Origin: Flectonema sp. DT1601 | Lineage: Eukaryota | NCBI GenBank assembly: GCA_964019425.1 | Contig: OZ025782.1 | Span: 868,001 to 932,000 of the forward strand | Reading direction: 5' to 3' | DNA length: 64,000 nucleotides | Shown: piece by piece, positions 31,450 through 50,668 of the stretch | How positions within the stretch are numbered: position 1 is the stretch's first letter | Layout of the letters: each line of letters begins with the position of its first letter | Position numbers and translations under genes: made by a program | Notes under the pieces: model-generated | Seen by the model: the letters and a program-made list of their open reading frames with translations, nothing else | Told to the model about the DNA's origin: nothing | Databases searched by the model: none

Positions 31450-33160
31450 TTATCACTCGCAGCAAAGTATTGCGAGATGTGCTCCACTGGTAGTGCTACG
31501 AACCAGAAATCATTTATATTTTATTTTTATTCTTTATTTCCTTTATTATTTTTGCAAAAATAGTTTTCCCTTTTTTTAATTTTCCTTTAATATTTATTTA
31601 CCTTTGAAGTGTGAAGGAATACTATTTTAAGCTGTAACGGGCTACAGGGCATGGGGCGCTCAACCTGTAGTAGTGGCCCCCGAATCCCCATATTCGACAG
31701 CAGTTACCCCCCCATATTCGACAGCACATATGGGACTTTTTATCGATACCAGCTGTTGATTTCTTATATTGCAACCAGGTTTGGCCGAACCCTATTCTCG
31801 TTTTTGCCAGTTTCAAGTTGCTATCCATTTAATATTAGTATCAAGTTATCCCCCCGACTAGATCCCAACAGCATTCCACATTTCTACCTTACCACATTCA
31901 AAACAACTTCCACCTTCTGAACTCAGAGTTCATTTACTACTGCCACATAAAGAAGAAGAAAAAGAAAAAATAGAAACATACTTTTTGAAGGCAAAGGCCT
32001 GAAACATCGCAGGCGAGGCAGTGAAACAGAAGGGGCAAGCCACATTTCCACTCTGCTGAATAGAAGAAAGTGATAATGAACAAACTAAAAAATGAACGAT
32101 AACCTTATTAATACTTATTCCCATCCCAGGTAGAATTGTCACACACATTGCAGACATAAGTTTGACTGTAGGACGGTCATGTAAACGTCTTTGTTTTGGA
32201 AAGAATTCAGCACCACTGTGGTGAGAGAGTAACCTTTATGAATACTTTGTTATACCTGCAAACCTGCACTAGAGATACCTGTCGGCTCGCTTCGCTCATG
32301 CAAAGTTATTTTTCTTTTTATTTCTCTGAATGTATTAATATGCCAGGTTTTAAATTAAAAAATCCGGAGGTAATTTTCCACCAAGCTTAGAGTAGACACT
32401 GCAGAGAAAGAATCAAAGGTATCAGGCAGGAAAGTGTATGATTCCAAAGTTGGAAAAATGAACAAAACAACAGAGACATTTTTATATTTTCTTTAGCTTT
32501 CTATTTTTAAAGAAATTCTTTATACAGTTCGATCACTCTTTCTCTCACACTCACGTTTTCGAAGCCCACCCTCCTCACTCCAGTCTTACGAAATTGGACT
32601 TCACTTACCCTTGAATCAGGCAGGTGCAAAGGACAATTACCCGCAAACCCGCACTTGATACTGTCTAGGCTGGCTTCGCTCACGCAAAGTTCTTTATTTT
32701 TTGTTTTTCTGAATTAAACTTGTTTTTCTTTTACCTCAGCGTGCAAAATTAAAATGATGGCTAGGTTGTTTGCATGGTTTTTTCTTTTTTCATCACTTTT
32801 CCTCTGATGGGTTTGATCATTGCCAAATGTTGTTGTTACCCTTCATGTGTGAATGGGGGGCTGTGCTTGCTCACTTCCGAAAATTTCGCATTTCGGGGGT
32901 GGAGAAGACGTAATTTTCGCCGCTCCTATGTTAATGTTAAAGCTAACCGAGCCGGTCGCAAACCCGCAAACCCGCAAACCCTAACACCAATATGGGAATC
33001 TCTCAGGATCAGCGCTGTAGTTCACCACTTTATTCTTATGATACAAATTTCTATGTAGCAATCCATTGTCTTATCAGTTCTTAATGTGAGCAGTCTTACC
33101 ATTTATTTTATTATAGTGCAACATGATTGATTCGTCGAGCCTATAGTATAATACGACTTA

Positions 33161-33683
33161 GAGAGAGAGTTCAGCTTCCTCTGAGCCGCAATTCCACCAC
33201 GCAACTCATCCAGATTGGATTTAGAATCACTGAAGACTCTTGTGATTCCAGATCTGGGACCCAAGACAGAGGTTGCTTTTCCAAATTCACTTATTAACAG
33301 CTTCAGAGTTACCTGTTCAGCTTTATAACTACTTTCCGTTGCAACAAGTCTCGATGCCATGGTCCGTTCACACGGCGTGATCTGCACTGCCGCTGCGCCT
33401 GCCGTGTAGTTGACAGGGTCGTGGGATCCGTCAACAAAAATGGACGAGGTACATGGCCTAAGTTCGCTGCAGTACTCCTCGAACTTAGCCTTGTCCACTT
33501 CAGCAACACCGGTCTTCGAATGTCCATATCTGCAAGATATCTCCAGGTTTGGAACATCTATCCATGGCTCGATGCTGTCAGGCATGACAATCCCCTGGAT
33601 CTCCATATTACGGTCCTCGGCCGGTAAAGTTGAACCCCAAGTTCCACTAGCGATTCCCTTCGTAGAAGGAACCCAATCCAGTG
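33161..33683 (-). repeat. 523-bp inverted copy of an internal segment (35053-35575, RNase H region) of the adjacent LINE
   Basis: ORF 33103-33606(-) translates almost identically to part of ORF 33681-36200(+) (MEIQGIVMPDSIEPWIDVPNLEISC...). Confidence 0.95.
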
Positions 33684-36430
33684 GTATTCAACGACTCCTG
33701 GCTCTCAGCTAGAGTTCCGAAGGTCTGGAAAGAGGGTATGATTAGACCGGTATACAAACCGGGTAAACCCAAAGAAAAGCTATCCAGCTACAGGCCGATC
33801 ACGTTGACATCTGTAGTCGGCAAAATGCTTGAACGGATAATTTACGACAGGCTAATGTATTGGTTGACGTCAAATAATGCCTTGTCCTCCATTCAGGCAG
33901 GTTTCAGAAGGGGTAGGAATACGTGCGAGCAAATCTCACTGCTGGTCAATGCGCTTCATGGTGCGAGAAAAAGTGGTAAGAGTTCAATTCTACTCTCTTT
34001 CGACTTCACTGAGGCATTTGATAGGATAAATCATGTTAAACTGATTGCTAAAATGGTGACGATGGGGATTCCTTCACCATTCATCGGATGGGTTGCTGAC
34101 TTTCTGACGCGAAGGAAAGCAAAGGTTAGTGTCAATGGCAATCTGAGCGCATACAGAACTGTGACGAAAGGTGTTCCGCAAGGGTCGATTGTTGGACCTC
34201 CCCTTTATCTGATATATGTCGACGGCCTGGCTAAGAAACTTGAGAAGACTGGATGTGTTTCAGCACTCTACGCAGACGACACAGCTTGTGTGGTCTCGAA
34301 TAAGGATTTTAAAGTAACTTACCGGATGGCGCAATTGGCCCTTGGGTTAGTAGATCGTTGGTGCAAAGATAATGACATGGCACTGTCGGTTTCGAAGACC
34401 TGCGGGATGCCGGTGGATTGTCCTAGGAATATGTATTGGAGACTGGGATTCCCCAGAACGTCAGGAGAGAACCTCTTTCGGATCAGTAGGGAGGAACTGG
34501 CTGGGATGATTCGGTCAAATGAAGAAGGTAGGCCATTACTTGGAAATGGGGCGATGATCCTCAAGCTGGGTGACACGGAGGTTACGAAGGCAAGTGAACC
34601 TCTTGAACTGATGCCAGTGGGACCGGATCCGACCTGGGTGAAGTTGCTGACTGCCGTACTCATGCCGACGGTGGATAGTGTAAAGTACTTGGGTGTCCAT
34701 ATTGACGATGACCTTACATATGGCACACAAGTGGATAAACCACTGGATGAGACGAGGAAGGGACTTGTACTGCTTCGAAAGTTGGAGCAATTCAACTTTG
34801 ATTTCAAAACGCTGAACATGATCAAGAACTTATACATCCTCTCAAGGATTCTGTATGGGCTTGAGAGCTATGGACCTTTCTTGACAGATGAACAGCTAAA
34901 ACCTATTGACCTGAATCTGAGGAAGATAGCTAGAAAGATCACCGGCTGCGGCTTCAACACAAGGTCCCTTCCGTTACTGTGGGAGGCGAACATACTCCCG
35001 ATGAGACTGCAGATTGAGAAGCAAGCCAGGATTGCTTTATTTAGGTATCGGTCACTGGATTGGGTTCCTTCTACGAAGGGAATCGCTAGTGGAACTTGGA
35101 GTTCAACTTTACCGGCCGAGGACCGAAATATGGAGATCCAGGGGATTGTCATGCCTGACAGCATCGAGCCATGGATAGATGTTCCAAACCTGGAGATATC
35201 TTGCGGATATGGACATTCGAAGACCGGTGTTGCTGAAGTGGACAAGGCTAAGTTCGAGGAGTACTGCAGCGAACTTAGGCCATGTACCTCGTCCATTTTT
35301 GTTGACGGATCCCACGACCCTGTCAACTACACGGCAGGCGCAGCGGCAGTGCAGATCACGCCGTGTGAACGGACCATGGCATCGAGACTAGTTGCAACGG
35401 AAAGTAGTTATAAAGCTGAACAGGTAACCCTGAATCTGTTAATAAGTGAATTTGGAAAAGCAACCTCTGTCTTGGGTCCCAGATCTGGAATCACGAGAGT
35501 CTTCAGTGATTCTAAATCCAATCTGGATGAGCTGCGTGGTGGAATTGCGGCTCAGAGGAAGCTGAACTCTCTCTCGATACTAGAAGGGATAAGAAAATTA
35601 GACTCATTCGTTCACCTTCAATTCATCCCAGCTCACGTGGGAATTGAACCGCATGACAAGGCAGATGAACTGGCGAAAAAGATTTCAAAAGATGTTAAGA
35701 GCAAGCCGGTGTCAACGACTATGGACTTCTTCGCACATAAGTCAAGGATAGTGAGGGAAGCTAACAGAAAGCTGTTTGGTAAGATTATGGAGGGTTCAGC
35801 AAGGGCGAAACCACCGATCAAACGGGTGATGCTTAGGCAGTATCTTGATGCTACCGGAGGCCTGAGAGCGGCTCGATACCCCAAGGACATGCTGAGAGAA
35901 TCAGAGATAAGGATAGCCAGGTTCAGAACGGGCTCTCACCCCCTGCTCAGGGTAAATGAACTACCGATAAAGTGCCCCTTCTGCAAAAGAACAGACTCTT
36001 CTGCCAGACATCTAATATTTGATTGCGAGGATGGTGACGTGGTCCGCATTAGAGAAGGAACAATAAGATCAAACATTCAGGAAGCGAGAATCTCCGAGAC
36101 CAAACTAAATCTTTCAATAATGTTTGCGACGAGAAATCTTCACGCCCTAGCCGGCTACTTATGGCATTTGGGGCAACGAACAGGCTTATCAAACTGTTAA
36201 CTGATTGGTAGTTGCTAATTCATTAGTATCATTCTCCCTTATCACACTCCTTAATCATCTCCTAATTTCTCTGAGGACATCCGCAGAGCTTCATGGCTCG
36301 TAGGTAACCCAGTGGTCTTTGGCCACCGTCCCTGTACTGATCCTTCGCTTTATATTAACTGTGTCTTGAGATTCCTATCCGGGGAAGTCCTCCAACGGAC
36401 TCAGGTCAGTTGCGCTTGTTTTTACTTATA
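33681..36430 (+). mobile_element. Non-LTR retrotransposon A (ingi/I-group-like; RT-RNase H-CCHC), 5'-truncated; ORF 33681-36200
   Basis: RT motifs YRPITLTS, QAGFRRGR, DFTEAFDRI, GVPQGS, YADD, KYLG; RNase H FVDGS, FSDSKS, FIPAHVGIEPHDKADELAK; C-terminal CPFC...HLIFDC. Confidence 0.95.
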
Positions 36431-36536
36431 TACTTTATCAAAAAATAAGAAGGGCAAGAATGCTCAGAATGAAGAAAAATAAAGTGGAAAGACAGGGGGG
36501 ATGTGGAAAAAAAAATAATCCTGCCGTCCGCGATTT

Positions 36537-36760
36537 TCATCTCCTGGTTGGGTAACTACACATCACCTTCGGTGTTGTCGCAGTGTCTCTTCCAACACTC
36601 CTGTCTCCTTTTTCTCCTATTCTCCTTTTAAATTTCTCTTGAGGGCAGGCCTTCGGGCTGTTCAAGTGGTCTTTGACCACCGCTCTAGTTATATGCTCGA
36701 TTCTTTGTTTTTCCTTATCGATGGTAGGAATGGTAACCGAATTAGCTTCATGTGTCCAAT
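36537..36760 (+). repeat. 5' copy of the terminal direct repeat of element B
   Basis: Near-identical to 42354-42576 (tcatctcctggttgggtaact...gcttcatgtgtccaat). Confidence 0.95.
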
Positions 36761-38381
36761 AAACCTCCTGAAGATAGTGGGAGAAGACGGGATCCCGGAG
36801 CAAGAGAAGGAAAGAAGGGTGGCAAATCTCCTAATGGAGATCGTTCAATTCGTAGCTGGGTCAGAAGGTGGGAACCCGGAGATGAAGAGGAGGACACCGG
36901 ACACACTCGATGGGAGTGGTGGGACGGAAGCGACCGCGACGACGGCAGCAGAAGCGACGACACCCTCAACTACAGGTGTCAACCAACCAACTACAGGAGC
37001 ATCTACAGCTTCTAATCAACAAACGAGTACGAAGCCGTTCTCATTGCCGATACCGACAGCAATGAAGGACAATCAAACCACGAAGGGAAAGGCAAAAGCA
37101 AGCTACCCGGAGTGGCACATTCACGGTGCGTGGGCAGGCGCTGTGGCCACCATCAGTTACGACGTAGCAGCTAATGCTACAAACAACCTTACCTCTGGTC
37201 TTGTTTTAGTTCGTTCGAAGCTAGACTTAGAAGCACCCCGCCAAACAAAGAAGAGCGGCCGTTGGGCTGCTATCAGCAAAATCCCGCTCACAAAGAGCAC
37301 CGTTCCAGTAGCATTACCGGTGATAAAAAAGGGTGGCGTCTGCGAGATCAGGCGCGTATTTTACACGCATGTATTTGGTGACGACTTTTCTAAAGCAGCA
37401 ACTAGCCACCAGATTCCAACTCCCAACCCAGTTCTATTCATCCAAGACTGGGGAAAATCAGCTGAGAAAGAATTGACCGTCAAAACGACCGATATTCTAA
37501 AGAAATTGAAGATAAAGGCGGACCCCTTTAGCTACAGAAAGAACGAGTCCCACACCTCGATGGCTTTCAGAGTCCCCAGAAACCAAGTACACGAGGTTCT
37601 GGAATACAACAACAGCGAACCCGAAACTGACAAACCCAAGAATGTCTCTTTCAGAAACCCGAGTTGGTCGAACGGAAGTGACGTTTGGCCAACGTTGCAA
37701 TTCAAAAACGACCTTGGCTTCCTGGCAGCGAAGTCCAAGACTTCTGCACTTGATGAATTCAAAGGAAAATTCTACATGTGCAGGTTTAAAAGCTGTTTTG
37801 GACTCCGAGTCCACCCTGACTGTAATATCAGGGTCAGCATTAAGCTCAACGCGGCAATCAAGCCTGCACTGCCCTCGGGCGACAGGTTTGTTATAAATTC
37901 GATGGCGATTCGTAAGTACTCGACAGCGCAGATCAGCGACTTCTTGAAGTCCCCACACAACTGGGAACACACAGTTGTTGCTTCTTTCCATAAAGGAGGG
38001 AGTACTACAATTGTTGCAATTGCGAAATCTCAACCGCCCAACTTCGTAAGCATAGGTACTAATGAATACCTTGTGATAAACAAAGAAGTTAAACGAACTG
38101 ACAGAAAACCGCTAGGCCCAACCTACAACCCAGGCGACGCGGCTCAAAAACTAACGGGAACCCTGAAGAGACAAAAAACAACTCCTCAACCACAACAGCC
38201 AACTCAGCAGCCGACATCAGCACCAACACCAGCGCCAGCACCATCAGCACCAACACCAACGCCAGCACCAGCAACAGCACAAACAACAACACCGCCCACC
38301 GAATCTGCTGCTAAGCAGGATAGTGATAAAAACCGTGACGTAGAAATGGAAAGTAACGATTCGGACTTTGATCTCAACTGA
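36750..38381 (+). CDS. ORF1 of retrotransposon B (start codon uncertain)
   Basis: Long open frame upstream of the APE with T/P/A-rich termini. It ends at TGA in the same frame as ORF2. Confidence 0.75.
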   Translation: MCPINLLKIVGEDGIPEQEKERRVANLLMEIVQFVAGSEGGNPEMKRRTPDTLDGSGGTEATATTAAEATTPSTTGVNQPTTGASTASNQQTSTKPFSLPIPTAMKDNQTTKGKAKASYPEWHIHGAWAGAVATISYDVAANATNNLTSGLVLVRSKLDLEAPRQTKKSGRWAAISKIPLTKSTVPVALPVIKKGGVCEIRRVFYTHVFGDDFSKAATSHQIPTPNPVLFIQDWGKSAEKELTVKTTDILKKLKIKADPFSYRKNESHTSMAFRVPRNQVHEVLEYNNSEPETDKPKNVSFRNPSWSNGSDVWPTLQFKNDLGFLAAKSKTSALDEFKGKFYMCRFKSCFGLRVHPDCNIRVSIKLNAAIKPALPSGDRFVINSMAIRKYSTAQISDFLKSPHNWEHTVVASFHKGGSTTIVAIAKSQPPNFVSIGTNEYLVINKEVKRTDRKPLGPTYNPGDAAQKLTGTLKRQKTTPQPQQPTQQPTSAPTPAPAPSAPTPTPAPATAQTTTPPTESAAKQDSDKNRDVEMESNDSDFDLN

Positions 38382-41300
38382 CTAGATGACGATGAGGATG
38401 AACTCAGTCCGACCAACTCACTTGTGGAAAAGGATACGGCTCGTGAACTGCTGCTAAAGGCAGGCGACGTCGAACGCAACCCTGGCCCTGACAACTCTCT
38501 CATATCTCTACTGAGCTGGAACTGTCGATCGATGGGGAACAAAGGCGCTTATATTCACAAGCTGCTTAATGCCTATGCGCCTGACGTACTGTGCCTACAG
38601 GAGACTTGGACGAATGATGTAATTTCGCACACGGACTATTTCACCTATCGGAATGATAGGGCAACACGAGGTGGAGGGGTTATTTCTATGGTGAAAAAAT
38701 GCCACACTCAGCAGCGTTTGAACATGGAGCTTCCGCCACACTTAAATGATGTCGAGGTCGTGAAGGTCAACATAGGTGGAAAGATTGACATCATCAATGT
38801 TTATGCTCCCCCGGGATGCATGATCAGAGAGTCAGATCTTCCAGTCTCAACGAAAGCAATCGTCGCGGGTGACTTTAATGCCCATCATCCGGTGTGGTCA
38901 CTTAAATCGACGAGAGCAGGTTCAACTCTACATGCATGGGCAGCTCAAAATGATCTACTGGTTGCTAACAAGATGGGGTCAATCACAAGGCCTTTTCCTG
39001 ACGTCCCGGGGGGTGGTACCTCGCCAGATGTAGTATTCTTTTCAAACTCGATGGTTCTTGAAGAATTTAGTGCAATTGAAGAAGATAATAAACATGGGTC
39101 AGATCATCGACCTCTCTACACCGTACTGGATCCCATGTGCCAACTTGCACGGGCCACGATAGGTTCGAAGAAACGCGTTGTATGGGACTTCAAGTCTACG
39201 GACTGGAACTGCTTTGGGACCATGCTCGAAAAGAGAATTAGAAAATCAAGACTCTCCGATGATGCAACTGCGAATGCCAAGCTCTTTAACAACATACTGC
39301 ATGAAGTGGCGGCTAAATTCATTCGTCGACGTCTCCTTTTCAAAGGGAAACGGAGACGAAAGTGGAAGACGTCAACCCCTGATTCTACCAAATCGAAGGG
39401 TGCCCACCTACGTGATCAACTTGACAAGGGTAACAACTTTGCCTTTGCGTTTAAGAAGATCAAAGAACTGCAGCAAGATGCTGGTAAAGATATCAGTGTC
39501 AACAACATCTCTGACTGCGATCTACCATCAGCATTCTTGGACCTGTTTGTCTCGAAATCGGAAATATTATCGCTAGAGGCCCCCGCACTCTCAGAAGGTG
39601 ATAATGAAATAGATATTTGCTGTGATTTCACAATGGCTGAAATTAAAGCTGCGATTAAGAACCTGAAGACCCGCAAGGCTGCAGGACCTGATGGAGTTCA
39701 CAATGAGATGATCAAAAACTTCACTCCGGCAACAGTGGAATACCTCTTGAGAATTATTAACACTTCCTGGAAGACTTCAAAAGTACCGTACCAATGGAAA
39801 CAGGGACTAATCAAGCCCATGTTCAAGGCAGGGAAACCTCGTAATGAACTAAAGAGTTTCAGACCAATAACACTCACCTCGGTTGTTGGGAAACTTGCGG
39901 AGAGGCTCGTGTATGACCGACTCATGCACTGGCTCACAAAACATTCGTCGCTCAGCCCACTACAGGCTGGATTCAGAAAGGGGAGAAATACCTGCGAGCA
40001 GATCACCGTTCTAGTAGATGCTATCGTAAGGAGCCACATGGAAGAAAAGAGATCAGTGTTCTTGTCATTCGACTTTACTGCTGCGTTTGACAGGATCAAC
40101 CATAAGATACTTTTATTAAAATTAGTAAAGATGGGTGTTCCGAATGTTATTATCAGATGGATCACAGACTTTCTTACAAACAGGAAGGTTAGAGTTGAAG
40201 CGAATGGGTATTTTAGCGAATTCCGTACTCTGGCTAAGGGTTTCCCAGGGATCGATCCTGGGTCCTCTTCTCTATCTTATCTACGTTGATGACCTCTGCA
40301 AGATTTTGGAACTAGAGAAGGAAACAACGACGTCTGCTCTGTATGCGGATGACACAGCATGTGTGGTGTCAGGATCAAACATGGAAGAAGCTCTTTCGAA
40401 TGCTCAGTTAGTACTCGACAAAGTGGATCAATGGTGTTTTGAAAACGACATGGCCTTATCAGTCTCCAAAACCTGTGCGCTTAAGATGAATGTTCGCTCG
40501 AAGGGCATAGTACTAAACGATACGTGTAATCGCGAACTGCTTTTCTCTAGATCTGTTGAGGAACGCATGCTTAAACTTGACTATGGTGACATCGAGAAGC
40601 ATATCAATCTCAAATCACCCAGACCCATGCTTCAAAGTGGCGAAACTATTCTTGAAATTGGAGGAATCCCAATCAAGACACAAGAAGAACTCGACAACTT
40701 GATGCTGCAATACGTCGTTCGTGAGGACAGCATTATGGCTGTGAGAACAATATTCAAAACTGCCTTTCTGTTACCGATAGTCGACTCAGTAAAATACCTC
40801 GGGGTTCACATCGACGACAGGCTCACCTTCCACAAACAAGTAGGCAAGATTCACGAAGAATTAAAGAGGGGGATATCACTTCTGCAGTGCCTCCAGCCGT
40901 ACGAACTGGACTACAAGACTCTTAACATGGTTAAGAACCTTTATGTAACCGCGAGAATCTCGTATGCGCTTGACAGTTTTGGTTGGCTGATAAGCAGCAG
41001 CGTTGACAGCATCGACTTCGAACTGAGGAAGGTCGCCAGACTGGTTACTGGATGCAGCAAGTGTACGCCAAGAGAGTTACTGTTGTGGGAGTCTGACATG
41101 TATCCTTTTAAACGTCAGATTGAAAAGCAGACAAAAATTGCGTACTACCGGTATAAAGCCATGACTTGGATACCTAATACAAACAGACTCGCCTCAACAC
41201 AAAGCTACTGGGCTGGCCTAATCCCTGGCACTGATAGTCAGCGTGAAAGCCAGTGCCTTGTGCAGCCTGACTCGATGGAACCCTGGGTATCTCCGACGAA

Positions 41301-42243
41301 CCTTAGGATTAGCAACAGCTGCGGATTTCCGAAGTCCGCGAACCCTGCGGTGGACAAAGAAAAGTTCATGTCGTACATTGGAACGTTGCCTCCTGTCGAC
41401 ATGGTAATCAACTGCGATGGCTCCTACTCTGCTTCCGGCGCGGCCGGTGCGGCTCATATTGCCAAGTCACGTAGCGGCCTTCGATCTGCTTACGCGTCTA
41501 GGCTTTATCAAGCTGACTGCAGCTACAGGGCTGAACAACATGCTCTGAAGAACGCGGCTAGACATCTGAGAACAGTGTTTAGCAAAGATCGTTCAATGAA
41601 ATCTGTGAGGATATTCACGGACTCAAAATCCCTTCTGGATGAACTGCTGGGTGGAAGGTGCAGACAGAGGAATACCGAGTCCCTCAAGATACTGGAATAC
41701 CTGCGCATGTGTGAGATGAAAGTGCATTTGCAATTCATCCCCTCGCACATTGGAATCGAGTTTCACGATGAAGTTGACGCGCTTGCAAAGGAAGCAGCGC
41801 ACAACAAGAACATCCGACCTGTGCTAGTCAAAGGCACGTACTTCTCGCGATCATCACATGTGAAGCGCTGCATCAAAAAGGATCTGCTTAACGTGAGTGG
41901 TTACACCTGCTACAAACACCTCATCAGAGGCCGTTCCGTTAAATACCCTCCTGGGATGGAAAGAGCCGACGAGATACGGATAGCGAACTTCCGGACAGGA
42001 TGTCACCCGCTAATTCAGAACTGGCGCAAGACGATCGACTGCCCATTTTGTGGCGAACCGTCCTCACAGGTTCACCTGCTGCAGGGATGTCAATCTCCCA
42101 AACTCGACTCTGCCAGGTTCAAAATCCTGGGCTTCTCAACACTGACCGGCAAGGGGATCGCGATCGAGAACTTATTATTGCCAACGAAATTCCTAACCTT
42201 GAAGCTCTCTTCACTTTGGCATGGTTTCCATCACTCGCGTTGA
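38382..42243 (+). pseudogene. ORF2 of retrotransposon B (2A-APE-RT-RNH) with one frameshift near 40240
   Basis: LLLKAGDVERNPGP precedes the APE. The KGVPQGSILGP motif is split between ORFs 38424-40289 and 40135-42243. Confidence 0.9.
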
Positions 42244-42353
42244 TCATAAGGTGGATGGAACAAACATCTAACCTTAGACTTTGGAAGTAAAGTAGGTGAC
42301 ATGTAGTCGCCAATATCAATTTGTTATTATTTTAGTATTTTCATCATTATCAA

Positions 42354-42576
42354 TCATCTCCTGGTTGGGTAACTGCACATCACCTTCGGTGTTGTCGCAG
42401 TGTCTCATCCAACACTCCTGTCTCCTTCTTCTCCTATTCTCCTTATAAATTTCTCTTGAGGGCAGGCCTTCAGGCTGTTCAAGTGGTCTTTGACCTCCGC
42501 TCTAGTTATATGCTCGATTCTTTGTTTTCCTTATCGATGGTAGGAATGGTAACCGAATTAGCTTCATGTGTCCAAT
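42354..42576 (+). repeat. 3' copy of the terminal direct repeat of element B (3' UTR)
   Basis: Near-identical to 36537-36760. Confidence 0.95.
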
Positions 42577-42666
42577 TTCAAGGACGCGTGACCATTTATT
42601 TTTTTCCGTTGCCGCTCTTCTTACGTCCTCAGGCGGAGCCTACCTATGTTTCCCGTGTTTTCCAAT

Positions 42667-42761
42667 TTGTCAGACTTAAACCAAAAGAAAGTATAAAAGA
42701 AAGACAAAACAAAGAAGTGAAAAGAACAAAAACAAAGAGTCTGGAAGCACAGACGAGTGTA
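42667..42761 (+). repeat. Dispersed ~95-bp A-rich repeat, second copy at ~30397-30497
   Basis: ttgtcagactta...gtataaaagaaagacaaa...caaagagtctggaagcacagac is present at both loci. Confidence 0.85.
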
Positions 42762-42823
42762 ACCAAAAAAAAAGAAATTTATTTATTTATTTATTTATTA
42801 TAATAATAATAATAATAAAAAAG

Positions 42824-42862
42824 AACCAACGATTCTAAAGCTACAGTTTCTGTACTTTATTG
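42824..42862 (+). other. Complete 39-nt spliced-leader exon fused to a protein-coding sequence (retroposed mRNA 5' end)
   Basis: AACCAACGATTCTAAAGCTACAGTTTCTGTACTTTATTG; the 3' part CAGTTTCTGTACTTTATTG is the conserved kinetoplastid/diplonemid SL end. It is not followed by the SL intron or preceded by the SL-gene upstream sequence. Confidence 0.95.
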
Positions 42863-42874
42863 GGACCACACAAA

Positions 42875-44505
42875 ATGACTCCACGCGGCGGTCTCGGACG
42901 GCTGCGGCCGACAAAAAATTGTAGGGATGAAGCAAGAGGACGACCAGCTAACCGGACGCTCTCTAGCAAACAAAGGAACAAGCTTGCTCACACGATCAAC
43001 GGAAATGGGCCTAAGATAGAAGAAAGGGAAAGGCTGGACCGAGACAACACCCGGGTAGACCGGGGAGAAACAAGGAAGAAACCGGCGGAGAGGAGACTCA
43101 AGAAGCAGCAAGAGGACCAGGAGGAAGAGAGGAAGGAGCTGCTCAGCAAACATGAGCTCCTTGAAGCACAACAAAAGAAGCTGGACGAGCAGCACAGGCA
43201 GCAACAATTAGATCTCTTTCAGGAAAAGCTCCAACTGGAACAAGACTTGGAGGATCACAAGAATCAGCAAGTGGAGAAACAACAACTACTGGAACAACAA
43301 CACCAGCAGCAGCAGCTTGAGCTTCACCAAACGAAGCATCAGATGCAACAGGAACTGGAGAACCAACAACAACAACAGCATGAAAAGCAACAACAGCAGC
43401 AACAGCAACTTGACCATCAAGCCCAACAGCAGCAGGAAATTCAACAGCAGCAGCAACAGCAACTTGATCATCAAGTCCAACAACAGCATCTAAACCATCA
43501 ACAGAGCCAAGAAACTATTTAACCAACAACAGCAAGAATTGCTTAAGTTCAAGGCAGACCTCCAACAAAAACAGGAGATAATCCTGAACCAACAGCAGCA
43601 ACTCGAACAGCAGCACAGCAAGGAGAAGGATATCGAGAGAGAGTCTCTCCGCAGGAGAAGATGTCAACTCGAGGAAGACCACCGTCAACAGCAACTTGAA
43701 CAGTCCAGGATTCAACAGGAACTGCAACTGCAACAGACAAGCCTGGAGGAAAAACAGCATCTGCTACAACAGCAATTTAATGTGGAATTGGAAAAGGGTA
43801 AACTGGAGTTACTGGACTTACAGCAACAACTGGAGAAGAAAAACCAGGAAGGTTTGAAGGAGCAGGAGGTGGCTCTACAGCTTAAACAACGGCTGCTTAT
43901 CGAACAGCACAACAAGGAGAAGGATGACGGGAAGCAGGAGTTATTGGTCCTGCAACAGCAACTAAGCGAGCAACGTCTGCATGATCAGCAGCAACAGCAA
44001 CAGAGAAGCGAGGAGTTAAAGAAGCAAGAAGAAGACCTCGAACTTCAACGACTCCAACTGCAACGCCAGCAGGAGGATGAAATGGAGAAGGGCAGATATG
44101 AGCTCCAGAGTCTCAGGGACATGCTGGGTATGGAGTTTGAGGAACAGAAGACGTCACTAAAAATCCAAGGGGATAATCTTCGCCATCAGCAACAACAGCT
44201 CCAGCAACAACAGCAAATCTTCCAAGAAAAAGAAGAACGATTGGATCAGCACTACGTACACCAGCCTTATGCCACCGACACCAACCCCCACTACCAACTT
44301 CCTCAAGACCCCCGGTTTGATGAACTTCAGAGGGAGCTACGTCAGGAACGGGCCGAGAAAGGAGAACTTAGGGAGCTGCTGAGATCTCTTCAACACCAAC
44401 TGAAGGAAATGACGCAAGAACTTAACTTGCAGAGAATGGAAGCTCAGGAGCAGAGGGAGGCTGCCAAGAAAGAGTCACTGGGAATGCAAGCCCGCTACCT
44501 GCAGG
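42875..44505 (+). pseudogene. SL-capped processed copy of a Gln/Glu-rich coiled-coil gene, frameshift near 43515
   Basis: ATG at 42875, 12 nt after the SL. The Q/E-rich ORFs 42860-43522 and 43539-44519 are joined by a 1-nt insertion (gaaacta versus gaacta in the inverted copy). Confidence 0.85.
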
Positions 44506-45404
44506 AATTGCTGTTGTAGCAGATGCTGTTTTTCCTCCAGGCTTGCCTGTTGCAGTTGCAGTTCCTGTTGAATCCTGGACTGTTCAAGTTGCTGTTGACG
44601 GTGGTCTTCCTCGAGTTGACATCTTCTCCTGCGGAGAGACTCTCTCGATATCCTTCTCCTTGCTGTGCTGCTCGAGTTGCTGCTGTTGGTTCAGGATTAT
44701 CTCCTGTTTTTGTTGGAGGTCTGCCTTGAACTTAAGCAATTCTTGCTGTTGTTGGTTAAATAGTTCTTAGCTCTGTTGATGGTTTAGAAGCTGTTGTTGG
44801 ACTTGATGATCAAGTTGCTGTTGCTGCTGCTGTTGAATTTCCTGCTGCTATTGGGCTTGATGATCAAGTAGCTGTTGCTGCTGTTGTTGCTTTTCATGCT
44901 GTTGTTGTTGTTGGTTCTCCAGTTCCTGTTCCATCTGATGCTTCGTTTGGTGAAGCTCAAGCTGCTGCTGCTGGTGTTGTTGTTCCAGTAGTTGTTGTTT
45001 CTCCACTTGTTGATTCTTGTGATCCTCCAAGTCTTGTTCCAGTTGGAGCTTTTCCTGAAAGAGATCTAATTGTTGCTGCCTGTGCTGCTCGTCCTTCTTT
45101 TGTTGTGCTTCAAGGAGCTCATGTTTGCTGAGCAGCTCCTTCCTCTCTTCCTCCTGGTCCTCTTGCTGCTTCTTGAGTCTCCTCTCCGCCGGTTTCTTCC
45201 TCGTTTCTCCCCGGTCTACCCGGGTGTTGTCTCGGTCCAGCCTTTCCCTTTCTTCTATCTTAGGCATTTCCGTTGATCGTGTGAGCAAGCTTGTTCCTTT
45301 AGAGAGCGTCCGGTTAGCTGGTCGTCCTCTTACTTCATCCCTACAATTTTTTGTCGGCCGCAGCCGTCCGAGACCGCCGCGTGGAGGCATTTTGTGTGGT
45401 AACC
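44506..45404 (-). pseudogene. Inverted, unspliced copy of the same Q-rich gene (5' ~900 bp), with a trans-splice acceptor AG at 45406-45405
   Basis: The reverse complement matches 42863-43777 with small indels and stops. Upstream on the - strand is ttttatttattttAG|GGTTACCACACAAAATG. Confidence 0.85.
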
Positions 45405-45430
45405 CTAAAATAAATAAAAAATAATAAAAA

Positions 45431-45509
45431 GTTGCGATATCCCAGGGGTAGTGGTATAACCCTCGCCCTGGGGCTGGGTGATCGCTGGTTCGACCCCCTG
45501 CCACTGCAA
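45431..45509 (+). ncRNA. Degenerate tRNA-like element (A box TAGTGGTA, B box GGTTCGA)
   Basis: Box spacing and ctcgcc...tggg resemble tRNA-Pro/Gly, but the acceptor stem is imperfect. The opposite strand also resembles U1 snRNA (see findings). Confidence 0.4.
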
Positions 45510-45679
45510 TAACCCATCGCGCCTGTACGCAATTAGTTCAAATCCCGCGCCCGAAGGGCGTCCAGGGTAGACCTGGTAGACTCTCCTACGTTAAGACTGG
45601 AGGGAAGGGAAAATGGAAGGATTTCCATAAAGAGGCTAAGAACACACAAATAAATAAATAAAAAAAAAAAAGAAAATCC

Positions 45680-45759
45680 GGCAGGGCTGCACAGCCGAGT
45701 GGATACCTTAAATCTCTTCGGTAGCCGTGGCAAGGGTTCAATTCCCAGGCACATTTTTT
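45680..45759 (+). ncRNA. Degenerate tRNA-Leu/Ser-like element with an oligo-T terminator
   Basis: GCCGAGTGG A box, GGTTCAATTCCC B box, then T6. The cloverleaf is incomplete. Confidence 0.45.
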
Positions 45760-45803
45760 GTTTTTCAACCAGAAAAATTAGTAAGAAGAAAGTAGCAAGG
45801 AAA

Positions 45804-45872
45804 AGGGTACAAAATTGGACTTAACTTAACGTGAGCGAAGCGAGCGTAAAGTTAAGTTCAAATTTGTACCCT
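45804..45872. repeat. 69-nt imperfect palindrome centred on GCGAAGC
   Basis: agggtacaaaattggacttaacttaacg-tga-gcgaagc-gag-cgtaaagttaagttcaaatttgtaccct. Confidence 0.85.
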
Positions 45873-46142
45873 GGACGGGTACCTAGCCAGGGAATAAAAA
45901 CAGACGTGACTTGGTTGTAAAAATAATGTTTGTTCAGAAAGCTTAAAAAAAAAAATTGTGCGAGAAACGCGAGCCTGGAAGGGGTATCTCTAGTGCGGGT
46001 TTGCGGGTTTGCGGGTTAAGAATTGGTATTAAGAAACTAATAATCATAATGTTGGATTTACATTATGGGAACGCATCGAAAAATTCGATGCTTGGTGAAA
46101 CGGTGCTTTGGGATGCTGCAAATTACTGAAATATATTTAACA

Positions 46143-46168
46143 AAACTGTAGCTTTAGAATCGTTGGTT
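46143..46168 (-). pseudogene. Truncated SL RNA gene (first 26 nt of the exon, with conserved upstream flank)
   Basis: AACCAACGATTCTAAAGCTACAGTTT, preceded by the same ctaattacctggggtaact.ctttttaaggtt flank as the gene at 47265. Confidence 0.9.
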
Positions 46169-47152
46169 AACCTTAAAAAGTAGTTACCCCAGGTAATTAG
46201 AAATTACGTGGCTTTTAGAAATACTGCCAGTACTAACAGATATAACTCTCACTACTAACATCGTCCGCCTTTTCCGACGGCATCCAGAATCTCCCCTCTG
46301 CCTCCGACATACCTATCGCCCTTAGCGCGGCATCCTTCCGCGCTCTCAAATCTACGTGGCCTTTTCTTGGGTGTGCCAACCCGGTGCCTTGCACCCACAA
46401 CGACAGAAGACTCGTCGGCATCGAGAATTCATATGACATAATTTCAAACTTAAATGTACAAGTATGAAAAAACCCTGTGATAAAGCGTAAAGAATGACAA
46501 AATGGAAAAGTAAAACGATGAAGAATTTTTTGATATATTGAGGGACACGTTCCCAAGGATAACTTGTAATAATGCAAGCTTGTTTTATAACACACGGAAT
46601 TTGCACATCTGAAACAATTGTTAAATGTAAAATGCCTTATCTAGAGACAGTGTCTGCAGCCAGGTCGGCGCAACACTTTTTGCCCATGATCGGACTCGTC
46701 TAAATTGAGGAAAAATGATCGAAGATGAGAACTCAAACTTCATTGTACACTAGAGCAGAAAAGACAAAGGATGATATTACGTAATTTAAAACTGCCATTT
46801 GCAAGGTTCCCAAGGAAAGGTTTGCGGGAAATCACTTTGTAAACCAACTCTTGGAATGAATTGCAATCACGACACAATGCAAAAGGGAGAAAGCGGGGAG
46901 AGAGAAGCTGTCCAAACAGTTGAACAACTGATAACAAACTAATTTTTAATAATTAATTTGATTTCAGTATTCTTTAATAATATACCAACAAGTCAGACAT
47001 CAGAAGTACAGCGATAATCAATTACGACTTTCGGGGAAGAAAGCCAAAAAAAAAATATATTAAAAAATTTTACGTAAAAAAATAGGAAACACGGTAAGTC
47101 TTTGTACATTTCCTTCCACTTGGCAAACACAAGTCCACGGACAATAAAAAAA

Positions 47153-47265
47153 CCCCAAAGGAAGAAAATTCTTCCTAAGAGGTTAGCTAAATATTCCAAG
47201 CAAGCTCGGATGTTGAGACTGTACCAATAAAGTACAGAAACTACGTAGCTTTAGAATCGTTGGTT
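47153..47265 (-). ncRNA. Spliced-leader RNA gene (exon with a 2-nt insertion, GT donor, ~72-nt intron, T7 tract)
   Basis: SL exon ...TTTATTG|GTACAG, then hairpin tccgag-cttg-cttgga, a U-rich single strand (candidate Sm site), hairpin aggaagaa-tt-ttcttcct and TTTTTTT. Confidence 0.9.
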
Positions 47266-48424
47266 AACCTTAAAAAGAAGTTACCCCAGGTAATTAGAAC
47301 AACACATTCATAAAAAGTACTGCCCTGCATCAACTCACAGACAGCAGGATCCACAATCTTGTGACTGCGTTGAAGAAAGGTTCTTTGATTGCGATGATCC
47401 TGCCTTTGTGAAAAACACTTGATGCGTTGTATACTTCGCCAAAGGTGGTCATTGAAAAGGTATGCATGATAAACCTGTTGTGAATAATATAAGTAAAAGG
47501 TAATTGAAAGTAACTTACTATACGGGTGTTGGTTTCTATCATTTTTTTTTTTTAATCTGTAAATTCTTTAGTAGAAAAATAACATAATTTTTTGGAAGCT
47601 GTGTAACGAAAAAGAGGAAAAAATGGAGAAGAAGAGTTCCTACTAATAACATAACAGAGGTTTATCACTCCGCGTCTGAAAAACTTCTTCTCCGACGGTA
47701 CAATAAATAAAAAAGAAACGTTCGTAAAGAACGTTCATAAGAGTAATGAGAATAATAAGCATAAGGCAGACGTACCAGAGGAAAGAACCGAAAAGAGAGA
47801 AAAAAAACGAAATCGGCACCTCACCAGTAATTTTTCAGACTTTGTTCACTTGGAACCGACAAGCGGAAAGTAAAAGTTTTAACGTTATGCTCCACCATTC
47901 GTAAAACATGTTTTGTTTTACGAGTAGAGATTTTTTCTTCGACATAACTGTTTCATGCGAAGGAAAAGAAAAGGGCTCTAAGTATTGAACATTACTTTGT
48001 GTGGTTTCACATATTTCGGATTATTTTCGGCCCACCGGGCACAAGTGGTGTACTTTCAACACACCCTTTTTTTTCCCCATTGCCATTTTTTCGGGCATTC
48101 CGAGTAGCCGAGACGTAAGCTGTTTCAGATTTGAGATTGGGACTTATTGACCAAGAGAATGATTAACTATCCAACGTTGTTGTATGGCATGAGGACTCAG
48201 GGTGACTTAATCCGTAGCAGTTTCCGAAGACTCAGTACGGATTTCCCAGTTCACCTTAACTGATGCCAAGTCTAAGCTCCTGAGAAGAGACAGATGGGGC
48301 TTTCTGTTGAGAACACTCATGTGTATGATCTGATTGCAAAAAAAGAAAAATGAAAATAGAGTGAGTTTTTTTTTTGATCTCTTTACAAAATCAAAAAAAA
48401 AAAAAAAAAAAAAAAGCGAGACTA

Positions 48425-50668
48425 CTATTCAGTGATAGTAAAGTCAACCTCGACAGCCTTATAGTAGATTGACGTATGAGCGCCTTGAGCACCCGGTTGC
48501 ATGCTTCCAATATACAAGCTGTATTTACCGGGTAACGTAGTAAACGGTGATGTCTCGCTCTGCATTAATCGAAAGGCTTTTCCAAAAATTTCAATGCAGA
48601 CTTCTAAAGTTCTCCCAGGAAGGACAGATTCTGTTCTTGTAAACCCAACGAGCATCATTTGAGGTGTTTTTGCAGCGAACTTTGGTGGTACTGTGTAAAT
48701 CTGAACAACCTCTTCAAGTTCAACAGTACCAGAATTCATTATCGAAACACAAACTGATGAAGAAGCAGCCACATCACCAGAAGGGATAGCCGATGGCTTC
48801 ACTGTAGCACTCATATACCGGAAATTAGAATAAGTCAATCCATAACCAAATTTATACAATGGCGCACCCATTAAATATCTATATGTTCTTCCAGCAGTAC
48901 CAGGGGTATTAAGTGACATGTCTAATTCATTAGCTACTTGGCTCATACCAGTTGGCCATGTCATTGGTAGTTTCCCTGTAGGAGAGTGTTTTCCAGCAAT
49001 AAGCTCACCCAATGCTTCCCCTCCTTTGGTTCCTCCGTACCACATTAGTAGGATGGCGTCTATATTCTTTGCCTCCCAATTCATTGAAATCGGACCTCCA
49101 GTCATAACCACCAAAAGAAGCTTCTTTGCAACAGGTTTTAATTTTTGTAATAAAAGAGTCTGCTGTCCAGGCATTTTTAAATCTGGGCGATCGCGTCCTT
49201 CACCTTCGCAGTGGGCTCCGCCTTTGCCTTGACCGCCTTCACAGTTGCGATTTCCACCAACGAAGATGACTGCGTCTGCTGTTTCGGCTGCGGCCAGAAC
49301 TTCAGGGAATTCTGATGTGTTGTTGTCTTCAACGTTGACACCGTGGATGTATTCAATTTGACTGTTCGGAAATGATTTCCTTATCCCTTCCAACGGCGTA
49401 ACTATGGAACAGTTGTTGAGAACTGGACCGTTTGCAAAATGACATCCGTAGTAGTTTCCTAACAAAGCATACTTATCGTCAGCCCCCCATCCGACAACTA
49501 ATATCTTTTGAAGTGGCTTCACCCACGGCAACTGAGACGCAGACATCACAGTGTTTCTTAACAACACCTGTGATCGTAATGCCACCGTCTTAGCAGTCTC
49601 TAAGTGACCTTCAGACGCGATGTCTTTCTGTCCAAGAGATGAATACTGAACTCTGGATGGTGGGTCAAACATGCCAGCGGCAACACGAGCGTTGAATAGT
49701 CTTGTTAAGGCAGTGTTGATTTTATTAATAGTTATCTTCTTTTGTTCTAATGCCTGGGTGAGGTTGAGGTACGCGTCTCCAGAATTCAGATCAACACCAG
49801 CGTTCAGAGTTGCAGCTGCAGCATCTACTCGATTCGTAAATCTTTTAAATTTTGTAACCATGAAAGCAATAGCACCTGTATCAGTTACAATGTACTGTTC
49901 AGGTTTAGTGAAATTGAAATGCGGATCGTCGCGAAGGACAGACTGAAGCATTGGCGACATACACATCGGATTGCCATTAACTCCATTGTAAGCGCACATA
50001 ATAGATGCAGCGTTTGAGGCACACGCTTCCCAAACAGGTAAATAATACTGCTGTAAATCAATATTTGTGATATTCGGATCAAATGATAACCTTGGTGGTT
50101 CGTTATCAACTCCGTACGCAACGAAGGCTTTGCACGTTGCTAACGTCTCGTAAATATCTTTTTGAGGTCCGTTTTGTAAGCCATCAATATATGCCTCTGT
50201 GAGAACAGTTGCTAAGAATGGATCTTCTCCGTATGTTTCCTGTCCACGTCCCCAGATTGGATCACGCATTAAGTTTCCAACTGGTCCCCAAAGGTCAAGT
50301 CCATAATTCATAGGTGAATTTCCGTCACTTGCATTGACTGCGATATTGTGTTTGGCACGAGCCTCATCAGAAGTGACTCTTCCAGCATTGTATATGTCTT
50401 TCTTACTCCAGGTTGCTGCCATTCCAATTGTTTGAACAAACTGAGTACTGACACCATTATCAACAAGACCATGTTGGACATTATTCCTCCAGTGGTATGA
50501 TTTTATTCCAAGTCTTGGTATCTCTGGAGTGTCTGTTATCATTTGTTGGATCTTCTCTTCAGTAGTCATCTCATTTATTAAACTTCTCACCCTCTCAGCT
50601 CTTGGTAAAGTCCAATTGAACCATGGCTGAATACCAACACTAGTAGTGACTAAGGTAGAGAGTAACAT
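48425..50668 (-). CDS. Secreted GH3 beta-xylosidase/beta-glucosidase-like enzyme
   Basis: RDPIWGRGQETYGEDP, IMCAYNGVNG, nucleophile region YIVTDTGAI, EGEGRDR, FGYGLTYSNF and a C-terminal Fn3-like domain. Confidence 0.95.
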   Translation of the reverse strand: MLLSTLVTTSVGIQPWFNWTLPRAERVRSLINEMTTEEKIQQMITDTPEIPRLGIKSYHWRNNVQHGLVDNGVSTQFVQTIGMAATWSKKDIYNAGRVTSDEARAKHNIAVNASDGNSPMNYGLDLWGPVGNLMRDPIWGRGQETYGEDPFLATVLTEAYIDGLQNGPQKDIYETLATCKAFVAYGVDNEPPRLSFDPNITNIDLQQYYLPVWEACASNAASIMCAYNGVNGNPMCMSPMLQSVLRDDPHFNFTKPEQYIVTDTGAIAFMVTKFKRFTNRVDAAAATLNAGVDLNSGDAYLNLTQALEQKKITINKINTALTRLFNARVAAGMFDPPSRVQYSSLGQKDIASEGHLETAKTVALRSQVLLRNTVMSASQLPWVKPLQKILVVGWGADDKYALLGNYYGCHFANGPVLNNCSIVTPLEGIRKSFPNSQIEYIHGVNVEDNNTSEFPEVLAAAETADAVIFVGGNRNCEGGQGKGGAHCEGEGRDRPDLKMPGQQTLLLQKLKPVAKKLLLVVMTGGPISMNWEAKNIDAILLMWYGGTKGGEALGELIAGKHSPTGKLPMTWPTGMSQVANELDMSLNTPGTAGRTYRYLMGAPLYKFGYGLTYSNFRYMSATVKPSAIPSGDVAASSSVCVSIMNSGTVELEEVVQIYTVPPKFAAKTPQMMLVGFTRTESVLPGRTLEVCIEIFGKAFRLMQSETSPFTTLPGKYSLYIGSMQPGAQGAHTSIYYKAVEVDFTITE

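What the first reader, a model, noticed from the sequence alone, without database searches (positions are those of the whole stretch)
42824..45420. SL-capped retrocopy lying tail-to-tail with an unspliced copy of the same gene
Seen: the full 39-nt SL is joined to GGACCACACAAAATG at 42863. The inverted copy has a U-rich tract and AG|GGTTACCACACAAAATG at the equivalent position (45405). The genome therefore records both the pre-mRNA acceptor and the trans-spliced product. Inference: a full-length-5' reverse transcript of a mature mRNA was inserted downstream of LINE B, after a (TAA)n/A-rich tract, possibly by template jumping. The Q/E-rich ORF may itself be the ORF1 of a retroelement that is SL-spliced.
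Basis: partly seen in the sequence, partly recalled or inferred. Interest (0 to 1): 0.8.

Follow-up and report, generated by a model that had tools for sequence, protein, structure and literature searches.

The report
Spliced leader on ribozyme-headed retrotransposon copy
In a marine flagellate genome, a broken copy of a repeated element, likely a jumping gene, starts with the exact 39-base leader that these organisms splice onto messenger RNAs, joined at the first base of a predicted self-cutting RNA structure that is damaged in this copy, so it was likely copied from a spliced RNA that failed to trim its leader off.

Summary
Observation confirmed; interpretation revised. An exact 39-nt euglenozoan (diplonemid-like, recalled) spliced leader (SL) lies at 42824-42862 without SL promoter or intron; a real SL RNA gene is at 47265(-). 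The Q/E-rich ORF is not a single-copy host gene: it belongs to a family of 28 records (~1,075 aa), several cut behind poly-A, whose C-terminal domain matches the N-terminal part of endonuclease-RT polyproteins, so likely a LINE ORF1. New: the element's 5' end fits an HDV-like ribozyme whose first G is the last G of the SL; one base change breaks stem P3 in this copy only (9 of 9 intact relatives keep it). Best reading: a trans-spliced LINE RNA kept its leader, probably because self-cleavage failed, and was reverse-transcribed to the cap. The inverted copy is another dead insertion, not the parent; both lack their 3' halves and meet at 2-6 nt of microhomology. No read covers the junctions. SL-tagged retrocopies are known in dinoflagellates, and this scan already noted SL-headed LINEs there. 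Side result: the same SL sits 18-19 nt behind a giant-virus-type promoter motif in all 14 intron-less metagenome hits; the scan found this before with other leaders.

The parts
36537..42243 (+). LINE B: ORF1 and frameshifted endonuclease-RT-RNase H ORF2 with a 2A-like motif; its first 224 nt are a piece of its own 3' UTR fused into ORF1 near codon 13
   Evidence: Pfam RVT_1 and Exo_endo_phos; repeat 36537-36760 = 42354-42576, 97%; other ORF1 records begin with a different N-terminus
42244..42822 (+). 3' UTR of LINE B ending in a (TTTA)n/(TAA)n/A-rich tail
   Evidence: A contig of run X3 runs unbroken 41001-42679 and one of X2 41824-42565
42823..42823 (+). Single G before the SL; possibly cap-derived (inferred) or part of the tail
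   Evidence: the base before the SL is T in both window SL genes and in 27 of 31 GT-followed metagenome matches
42824..42862 (+). Complete 39-nt SL exon, no SL promoter upstream, no intron downstream
42862..42922 (+). Predicted HDV-like ribozyme at the element's 5' end: P1 42862-67/42890-95, P3 42877-79/42887-89 with a mismatch at 42878, L3 42880-86, P1.1 GG 42896-97, P4 within 42898-911, candidate catalytic C 42912, short P2
   Evidence: Descriptor scan found only copies A and B in 128 kb, 0.07 sites per shuffled window; core compatible with other subfamilies, also in another reading frame
42875..44510 (+). Copy A: first 545 codons of the Q/E-rich ORF, one frameshift near 43510; likely LINE ORF1
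   Evidence: 98% identity to P0008; family and homology
44506..44511 (.). Tail-to-tail junction of A and B with 2-6 nt of microhomology, at the point where gene orientation in the window switches from + to -
   Evidence: ORF orientations
44506..45405 (-). Copy B: inverted, more decayed 5' third of the same element; P3/L3 intact, P1 interrupted by two extra bases
45406..45430 (-). T-rich tract ending in A directly before copy B; forms an acceptor-like AG with the element's first G
   Evidence: not significantly like the SL promoter (11% of random pieces score as well)
46143..46224 (-). SL gene fragment: promoter-side DNA plus SL nt 1-26, then unrelated sequence
47150..47265 (-). SL RNA gene: exon with a 2-nt insertion, GT donor, structured intron, T tract
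   Evidence: fold z -4.7; contigs of X1 and X3 lack the insertion

Best explanation
The segment 42824-44510 is a decayed copy of a multi-copy element, likely a LINE, that was likely reverse-transcribed from an RNA carrying a trans-spliced leader, and it likely kept that leader because its predicted HDV-like 5' ribozyme is damaged. Shown: exact SL without promoter or intron; multi-copy family; homology of the ORF to the N-terminal part of endonuclease-RT polyproteins; an HDV-type pairing pattern that starts on the SL's last G; a P3 mismatch found only in this copy. Inferred steps: (1) full-length copies begin at the ribozyme's first G; (2) a source copy inserted behind an A got an AG acceptor from that A plus its own G and was trans-spliced in a polycistronic transcript; (3) the SL ends in G, so splicing rebuilds the ribozyme start, and a working ribozyme would cut the leader off again and hide the event; (4) here cleavage failed, RT ran to the cap, and the cDNA was joined to the A-rich tail of LINE B; (5) the 3' half is missing either because the broken end of copy B primed RT inside the RNA at the microhomology, or because a later deletion fused two tail-to-tail copies.
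For: SL starts at +1 and ends at the exon border, no promoter. 28 family records in five 90% clusters; P0002, P0004 and P0013 begin with poly-Lys runs fused inside the ORF, as 5'-truncated insertions behind poly-A would. Profile of the C-terminal domain hits P0193 (E 2.4e-7) and P0245 (E 9.7e-4), both with endonuclease and RT domains further on; the reciprocal profile from 23 of those distant hits scores P0002 at 5e-47 while 200 shuffles reach 0.04 at best; BLASTP P0193 domain vs P0002 29%, E 3e-16. Ribozyme descriptor: only A and B in the window, 7 of 100 shuffles give one site. N-termini of three subfamilies can encode the core, 0 of 2823 control octapeptides can. In LRR-gene fusions P0019, P0028 and P0155 the core falls at the fusion point in a different reading frame. 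Residue 2 is Pro in 9 of 9 intact records and in B, Thr in A. LINE A next door has a 5' inverted duplication, the kind of structure internal priming makes (own knowledge).
Against: No read or contig covers the SL junction or the A|B junction; no genome is held. No RT ORF was tied to this ORF1: contig overlap with six RT clusters was inconclusive, and only 2 of 46 scanned hits carry endonuclease plus RT. The descriptor was written after seeing the sequence; P2 is only 4 contiguous pairs in A and B; nested folding prefers a competing helix and is not unusually stable (z -1.1 and -0.6; pseudoknots cannot be shown by that tool). Evidence from other subfamilies is back-translation, not DNA, and 8 distinct control contexts in 133,658 residues reach 15 or more forced bases. 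The P3 change may postdate insertion; my rough estimate is a 10-15% chance that one of A's few private changes hits the core anyway. Trypanosomatid L1Tc and ingi/RIME RNAs are reported to lack the SL (PMC1874656 passages).
Confidence: 0.62

Rival explanations
1. No trans-splicing: RT copied a ribozyme-cleaved element RNA to its first G and then switched template to an SL RNA or free SL exon, using the shared G (or the GG-x-AC likeness between the element start and the SL exon-intron border).
For: The element appears to start at that G on its own; template switching is visible in LINE B's 5' end; priming by microhomology at ribozyme-made 5' ends is described for R2 (PMC3774820 passages).
Against: It needs a switch landing exactly on the exon border; trans-splicing gives that border by default, and does not need a cleaved RNA, which fits the broken P3.
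Confidence: 0.17
2. Trans-spliced retrocopy as in the best reading, but the ribozyme-like pattern is chance or irrelevant to why the SL survived.
For: Post-hoc descriptor, weak P2, competing fold; SL-tagged retrocopies arise without any ribozyme in dinoflagellates (PMC5585692, PMC3942190 passages).
Against: Frame-independent conservation at fusion points and rarity in shuffles.
Confidence: 0.1
3. Assembly or library artefact: a chimera of repeats, or cDNA contamination.
For: Repeat-rich region with two fold-back structures; junctions not covered by any independent run.
Against: Copy A carries a frameshift and private substitutions, unlike a fresh cDNA of an active copy; host genes in the window are long open frames; an assembler misjoin would fall at homologous positions, not codon 545 against codon 301.
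Confidence: 0.06
4. DNA-level event at an SL gene: insertion of the element at the exon border of an SL gene, or recombination with one.
For: An SL gene and a truncated SL gene lie 0.8-1.9 kb beyond copy B; SL-gene-targeting elements (SLACS) are annotated in Diplonema (PMC10161547 passage).
Against: SL promoter DNA is absent and the break is exactly at +1, so two precise events are needed; B's flank is not significantly promoter-like.
Confidence: 0.05

Closest known systems
DinoSL-tagged retrogenes of dinoflagellates (PMC5585692, PMC3942190; passages seen)
   Same: SL exon in DNA in front of a coding sequence, explained by reverse transcription of trans-spliced RNA
   Different: Here a 39-nt euglenozoan SL, on a mobile-element ORF, in a dead 3'-truncated copy; one case, not a genome-wide class
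ingi/L1Tc/RIME/NARTc elements with the Pr77 HDV-like ribozyme (PMC1874656, PMC3383444, PMC4035085; passages seen)
   Same: Euglenozoan non-LTR element with an HDV-type fold that defines nucleotide +1; accumulation at strand-switch regions
   Different: Those RNAs are reported unspliced and SL-free, and the elements have one ORF; here the fold overlaps the start of a separate ORF1-like frame, has no Pr77 or Rfam match tested positive (one search found none), and one copy bears the SL
R2 retrotransposon 5' ribozymes (PMC3774820; passages seen)
   Same: Self-cleavage removes upstream sequence at every cycle, so 5' additions are normally not inherited
   Different: R2 is site-specific in rDNA and has no SL; neighbouring elements here use an APE-type endonuclease
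Cer1 of C. elegans (PMC3315495; passages seen)
   Same: A retroelement RNA that is SL trans-spliced
   Different: LTR element; the spliced short mRNA takes SL1, the full-length RNA does not; no SL-headed genomic copy in the passages seen
SLACS/CZAR/CRE elements (named in PMC10161547; mechanism recalled)
   Same: SL exon sequence next to a non-LTR element
   Different: They insert inside SL genes and keep SL-gene flanks; this copy has the whole exon and no SL-gene flank

Membership tests
SL-tagged retrocopy | Complete SL exon joined to a coding sequence without SL intron or promoter | tested here: met
SL-tagged retrocopy | Parent locus with an acceptor AG at the same position | tested here: inconclusive
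   Copy B has an AG there but two extra bases and other differences, so it is not the parent; no genome to search
SL-tagged retrocopy | Poly(A) 3' end and target-site duplication | tested here: not met
   Copy A ends at codon 545 in a microhomology junction; its 3' end is absent, so this lowers 'classic TPRT retrocopy', not the RNA origin
SL-tagged retrocopy | The RNA is trans-spliced in vivo | not testable with these tools
   No RNA holder listed
LINE ORF1 | Dispersed multi-copy family with 5'-truncated members | tested here: met
   28 records in five clusters; poly-Lys junctions in 3
LINE ORF1 | Homology to the non-enzymatic N-terminal part of endonuclease-RT elements | tested here: met
LINE ORF1 | Followed by an RT-encoding ORF2 in full-length copies | tested here: inconclusive
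   Contig-length overlap: 4 of 6 listed full-length LINE A-type ORF2 records against 9 of 25 for five other clusters; only 15 members listed per cluster
LINE ORF1 | RRM-type fold | tested here: inconclusive
   Models too poor to search (pLDDT 41 and 31)
HDV-like ribozyme | Nested double pseudoknot P1, P1.1, P2, P3, P4 with conserved L3 and a C in J4/2 | tested here: inconclusive
   All elements present but each window copy has one defect (P3 in A, P1 in B) and P2 is short; consensus details recalled, five-helix layout from PMC3774820 and PMC4035085
HDV-like ribozyme | Marks nucleotide +1 of the element | tested here: met
   Core sits at the fusion point in P0011, P0019, P0028, P0155 (by back-translation)
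HDV-like ribozyme | Self-cleavage 5' of the first G | not testable with these tools
   Needs an in vitro assay
SLACS/CZAR/CRE (SL-gene-targeting) | Insertion inside an SL gene with SL-gene flanks on both sides | tested here: not met

The most novel reading that the evidence does not exclude
This diplonemid-type LINE family runs a two-step 5' cycle: insertion behind an A creates a splice acceptor on its own first G, the host splices on a capped leader that lets ORF1 be translated, and because the leader ends in G the ribozyme is rebuilt and later cuts the leader off to restore the exact element end. Copy A is a fossil of a cycle in which the cut failed.
Probability: 0.2. Interest if true: 0.75.

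Novelty: new variant of a known kind. Interest (0 to 1): 0.5.

Why it matters
In euglenozoans every mRNA gets a spliced leader, which removes the natural 5' end, a problem for a retrotransposon that must copy its own start. Trypanosome elements are reported to avoid splicing. This copy suggests that a related lineage's element can be trans-spliced without losing a base, because the leader's last G replaces the ribozyme's first G. It gives a direct test (cleavage of intact versus copy-A 5' ends, with and without SL). It also shows that SL exons can tag retroposed RNA in euglenozoan genomes, which I did not find described in the searches. As it stands it is one dead copy with unverified junctions.

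Tried and rejected
No whole genome is held, so the genome-wide SL survey could not be run. Sequencing runs: three small-share holders, no RNA holder listed; their contigs cover LINE B's end and the SL gene but neither junction, which is no evidence either way. Rfam: nothing at gathering level in the window, only chance-level hits in 36200-48500. ARAGORN: no tRNA. Pfam: nothing on the Q-rich ORF. Q-ORF versus LINE B ORF1: no significant match (BLASTP and phmmer; hhalign probability 0.6%; profile E 0.009-0.045), so they are not shown to be homologous. Structure models too poor to use; no fold search run. ESM Atlas gave no answer. Prokaryote genome scan: 29 pattern matches, none confirmed. Idea that 42354-42822 is a RIME-like SINE: dropped, it is LINE B's 3' UTR. 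Idea that B's flank is an SL promoter: dropped. Viral origin of copy A: dropped, the promoter motif is absent and the preceding base differs. ORF2 partner by contig overlap: inconclusive. Supplements of PMC10161547: 7 files searched, no occurrence of the terms; its section on structural RNAs and repeats may not have been readable and could bear on novelty and on the species match of the SL.

Full report
Setting. The window is eukaryotic: NOT1, DNA2, an amastin-like gene, glycoside hydrolases and three endonuclease-RT LINEs. Genes left of 42.8 kb are on +, genes right of 48 kb on -, so the finding lies at a convergent strand switch filled with repeats. The 39-mer differs at two positions from 'Euglenozoa 14' in the table of PMC3795323 (passage); that this is the Diplonema leader is recalled. 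A 39-nt exon with a ~75-nt intron matches the description for Diplonema papillatum (PMC10161547 passages). No genome is held for the window.

Observation. The SL exon at 42824-42862 is exact. A true SL RNA gene lies at 47265(-) with GT donor, a well-folding body (z -4.7) and a T tract, and a truncated one at 46168(-); they share about 55 nt of upstream DNA that copy A lacks. Contigs from two runs show the SL gene without this copy's 2-nt insertion. Copy B (44506-45405, minus) is 96% identical to A, with six short deletions and an extra TT after GG.

The ORF is a repeat. Searches gave 28 records in five 90% clusters, full length 930-1,113 aa apart from fusions, on many long contigs. That they come from the same assembly is inferred: two window proteins are in the collection exactly, on a 468-kb contig, and contig lengths recur between clusters. 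P0002, P0004 and P0013 start with poly-Lys joined inside the ORF; P0019, P0028 and P0155 are fused behind LRR genes. A profile of the C-terminal domain (5 sequences) gave 94 hits at E<=0.001. I scanned 46 of them with Pfam; 2 (P0193, P0245) carry endonuclease and RT domains behind the matching region. The reciprocal profile from 23 distant hits scores the family at 1e-40 to 1e-49, 200 shuffles at 0.04 or worse. So the protein is likely a LINE ORF1; its RT partner was not identified and the element may lack one. A has codons 1-545 with one frameshift and 5 residue differences from P0008; B has about 1-301. They meet at 44506-44511 with 2-6 nt of overlap, depending on one unknown family codon.

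Left neighbours. 42244-42822 is LINE B's 3' UTR (unbroken contigs). LINE B itself begins with a 224-nt piece of that UTR fused into ORF1, which looks like a template switch. LINE A has a 523-nt inverted duplication at its 5' side. Whether A was joined to LINE B in one RT run or inserted at its A-rich tail cannot be told.

A ribozyme-like 5' end. From G42862, which is also the SL's last base, the sequence reads as P1 (6 pairs), a 9-nt linker, P3 with a 7-nt loop of HDV type (consensus recalled), P1.1 GG, a 4-pair P4, a C followed by A's, and a 4-pair P2. A descriptor allowing one defect found only A (P3 mismatch at 42878) and B in both strands of the window, and one site in 7 of 100 shuffled windows. 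It was written after I saw the pattern. Independent support is indirect: three subfamilies keep an N-terminal octapeptide able to encode the core, 0 of 2823 control octapeptides can (controls are partly redundant); in the LRR fusions the core appears at the fusion point in another reading frame with 15-17 forced bases, against 8 such contexts in 133,658 control residues. Against: nested folding prefers another helix and shows no excess stability, and Rfam gave no ribozyme hit. Residue 2 is Pro in 9 of 9 intact records and in B; only A has Thr, the change that breaks P3.

Mechanism. HDV-like ribozymes cut just 5' of their first base and define +1 of L1Tc and R2 (PMC3383444, PMC4035085, PMC3774820; passages). 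If this element starts at that G, B's 'acceptor' is flank A plus element G. Splicing there gives SL + GGACC, exactly copy A, and rebuilds the first G. An active ribozyme would remove the leader, so SL-headed copies should be rare and biased to broken ribozymes. A fits. All of this is inference until cleavage and splicing are measured. Rivals are a template switch to SL RNA, an irrelevant fold, an artefact, or a DNA event at an SL gene.

Comparison. SL-tagged retrogenes are known in dinoflagellates (PMC5585692, PMC3942190; passages). L1Tc RNAs are unspliced and 19 ingi/RIME cDNAs had no mini-exon (PMC1874656; passages). Cer1 has an SL1-spliced short mRNA (PMC3315495; passages). Searches listed no paper whose title or abstract start describes an SL-headed retroelement copy in a euglenozoan; most subscription papers are not in that library. 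Earlier notes of this scan report SL-headed LINEs in dinoflagellates, unchecked by me.

Side result. Scanning metagenome contigs for the exact SL gave 45 matches in 43 loci: 31 followed by GT and 14 (13 distinct) fused to a leader and ATG. All 14 have AAAA(A/T)TGA ending 18-19 nt before the SL, 0 of 31 of the others do (L013 among the 31 is ambiguous). In viral contigs 13 of 13 places in two records show the same spacing. The motif's identity as a giant-virus early promoter is recalled; neighbours include Bro-N, ankyrin, SMC-like and helicase genes, but no capsid marker was tested. The scan noted this pattern before for dinoflagellate and kinetoplastid leaders. Copy A lacks the motif.

Verdict. 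Real feature; a new variant of SL-tagged retroposition with a testable ribozyme angle; single dead copy, junctions unverified; interest 0.5.

Noticed in passing
L004, L005, L009, L010, L016, L017, L021, L022, L023, L030, L033, L039, L041, L042; L044-L060: The same 39-nt SL is written into DNA 18-19 nt behind AAAA(A/T)TGA, in front of a short leader and ATG, in 14 of 14 intron-less metagenome matches (0 of 31 SL genes) and 13 of 13 places in two viral records (9 in one 238-kb contig). DNA after the SL is GC-richer than before it in 14 of 14. Points to giant viruses of diplonemid-type hosts; the scan reported this for other leaders.
   Followed up: partly
L045:6001-7876: One SL-headed viral gene has a methyltransferase domain and, by eye, a nucleotidyltransferase-like motif; possibly an mRNA capping enzyme.
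   Followed up: no
window 36537-36760: LINE B starts with a fragment of its own 3' UTR fused into ORF1 near codon 13, likely an RT template switch.
   Followed up: partly
window 33161-33683: LINE A carries a 523-nt inverted duplicate of its internal 35053-35575 at the 5' side (98%).
   Followed up: partly
window 45430-45760: Three B-box motifs in tRNA-like stretches on + directly upstream of, and divergent from, copy B; the only three on that strand of the window; ARAGORN calls no tRNA.
   Followed up: no
window 46143-46224: SL gene fragment broken after nt 26; a contig of run X2 joins the missing 3' part to this upstream DNA.
   Followed up: partly
window 45804-45872, 45983-46016, 32253-32331, 32638-32714, 32957-32981: A 69-nt hairpin and recurring short motifs with 8-nt tandem units, shared between two places 13 kb apart; possibly ends of another mobile element.
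   Followed up: no
P0019, P0028, P0155: Two subfamilies of the element are fused in frame behind LRR genes at an equivalent repeat position, suggesting target preference or domesticated fusions.
   Followed up: partly
window 38382-38500 and 63700-63760: 2A-like peptides (ending NPGP; motif recalled) precede ORF2 of LINE B and LINE C.
   Followed up: no
window 28615-30225: 536-aa ORF with no Pfam match, not in the protein collection as called, followed by a degenerate piece of LINE B's 3' end.
   Followed up: no
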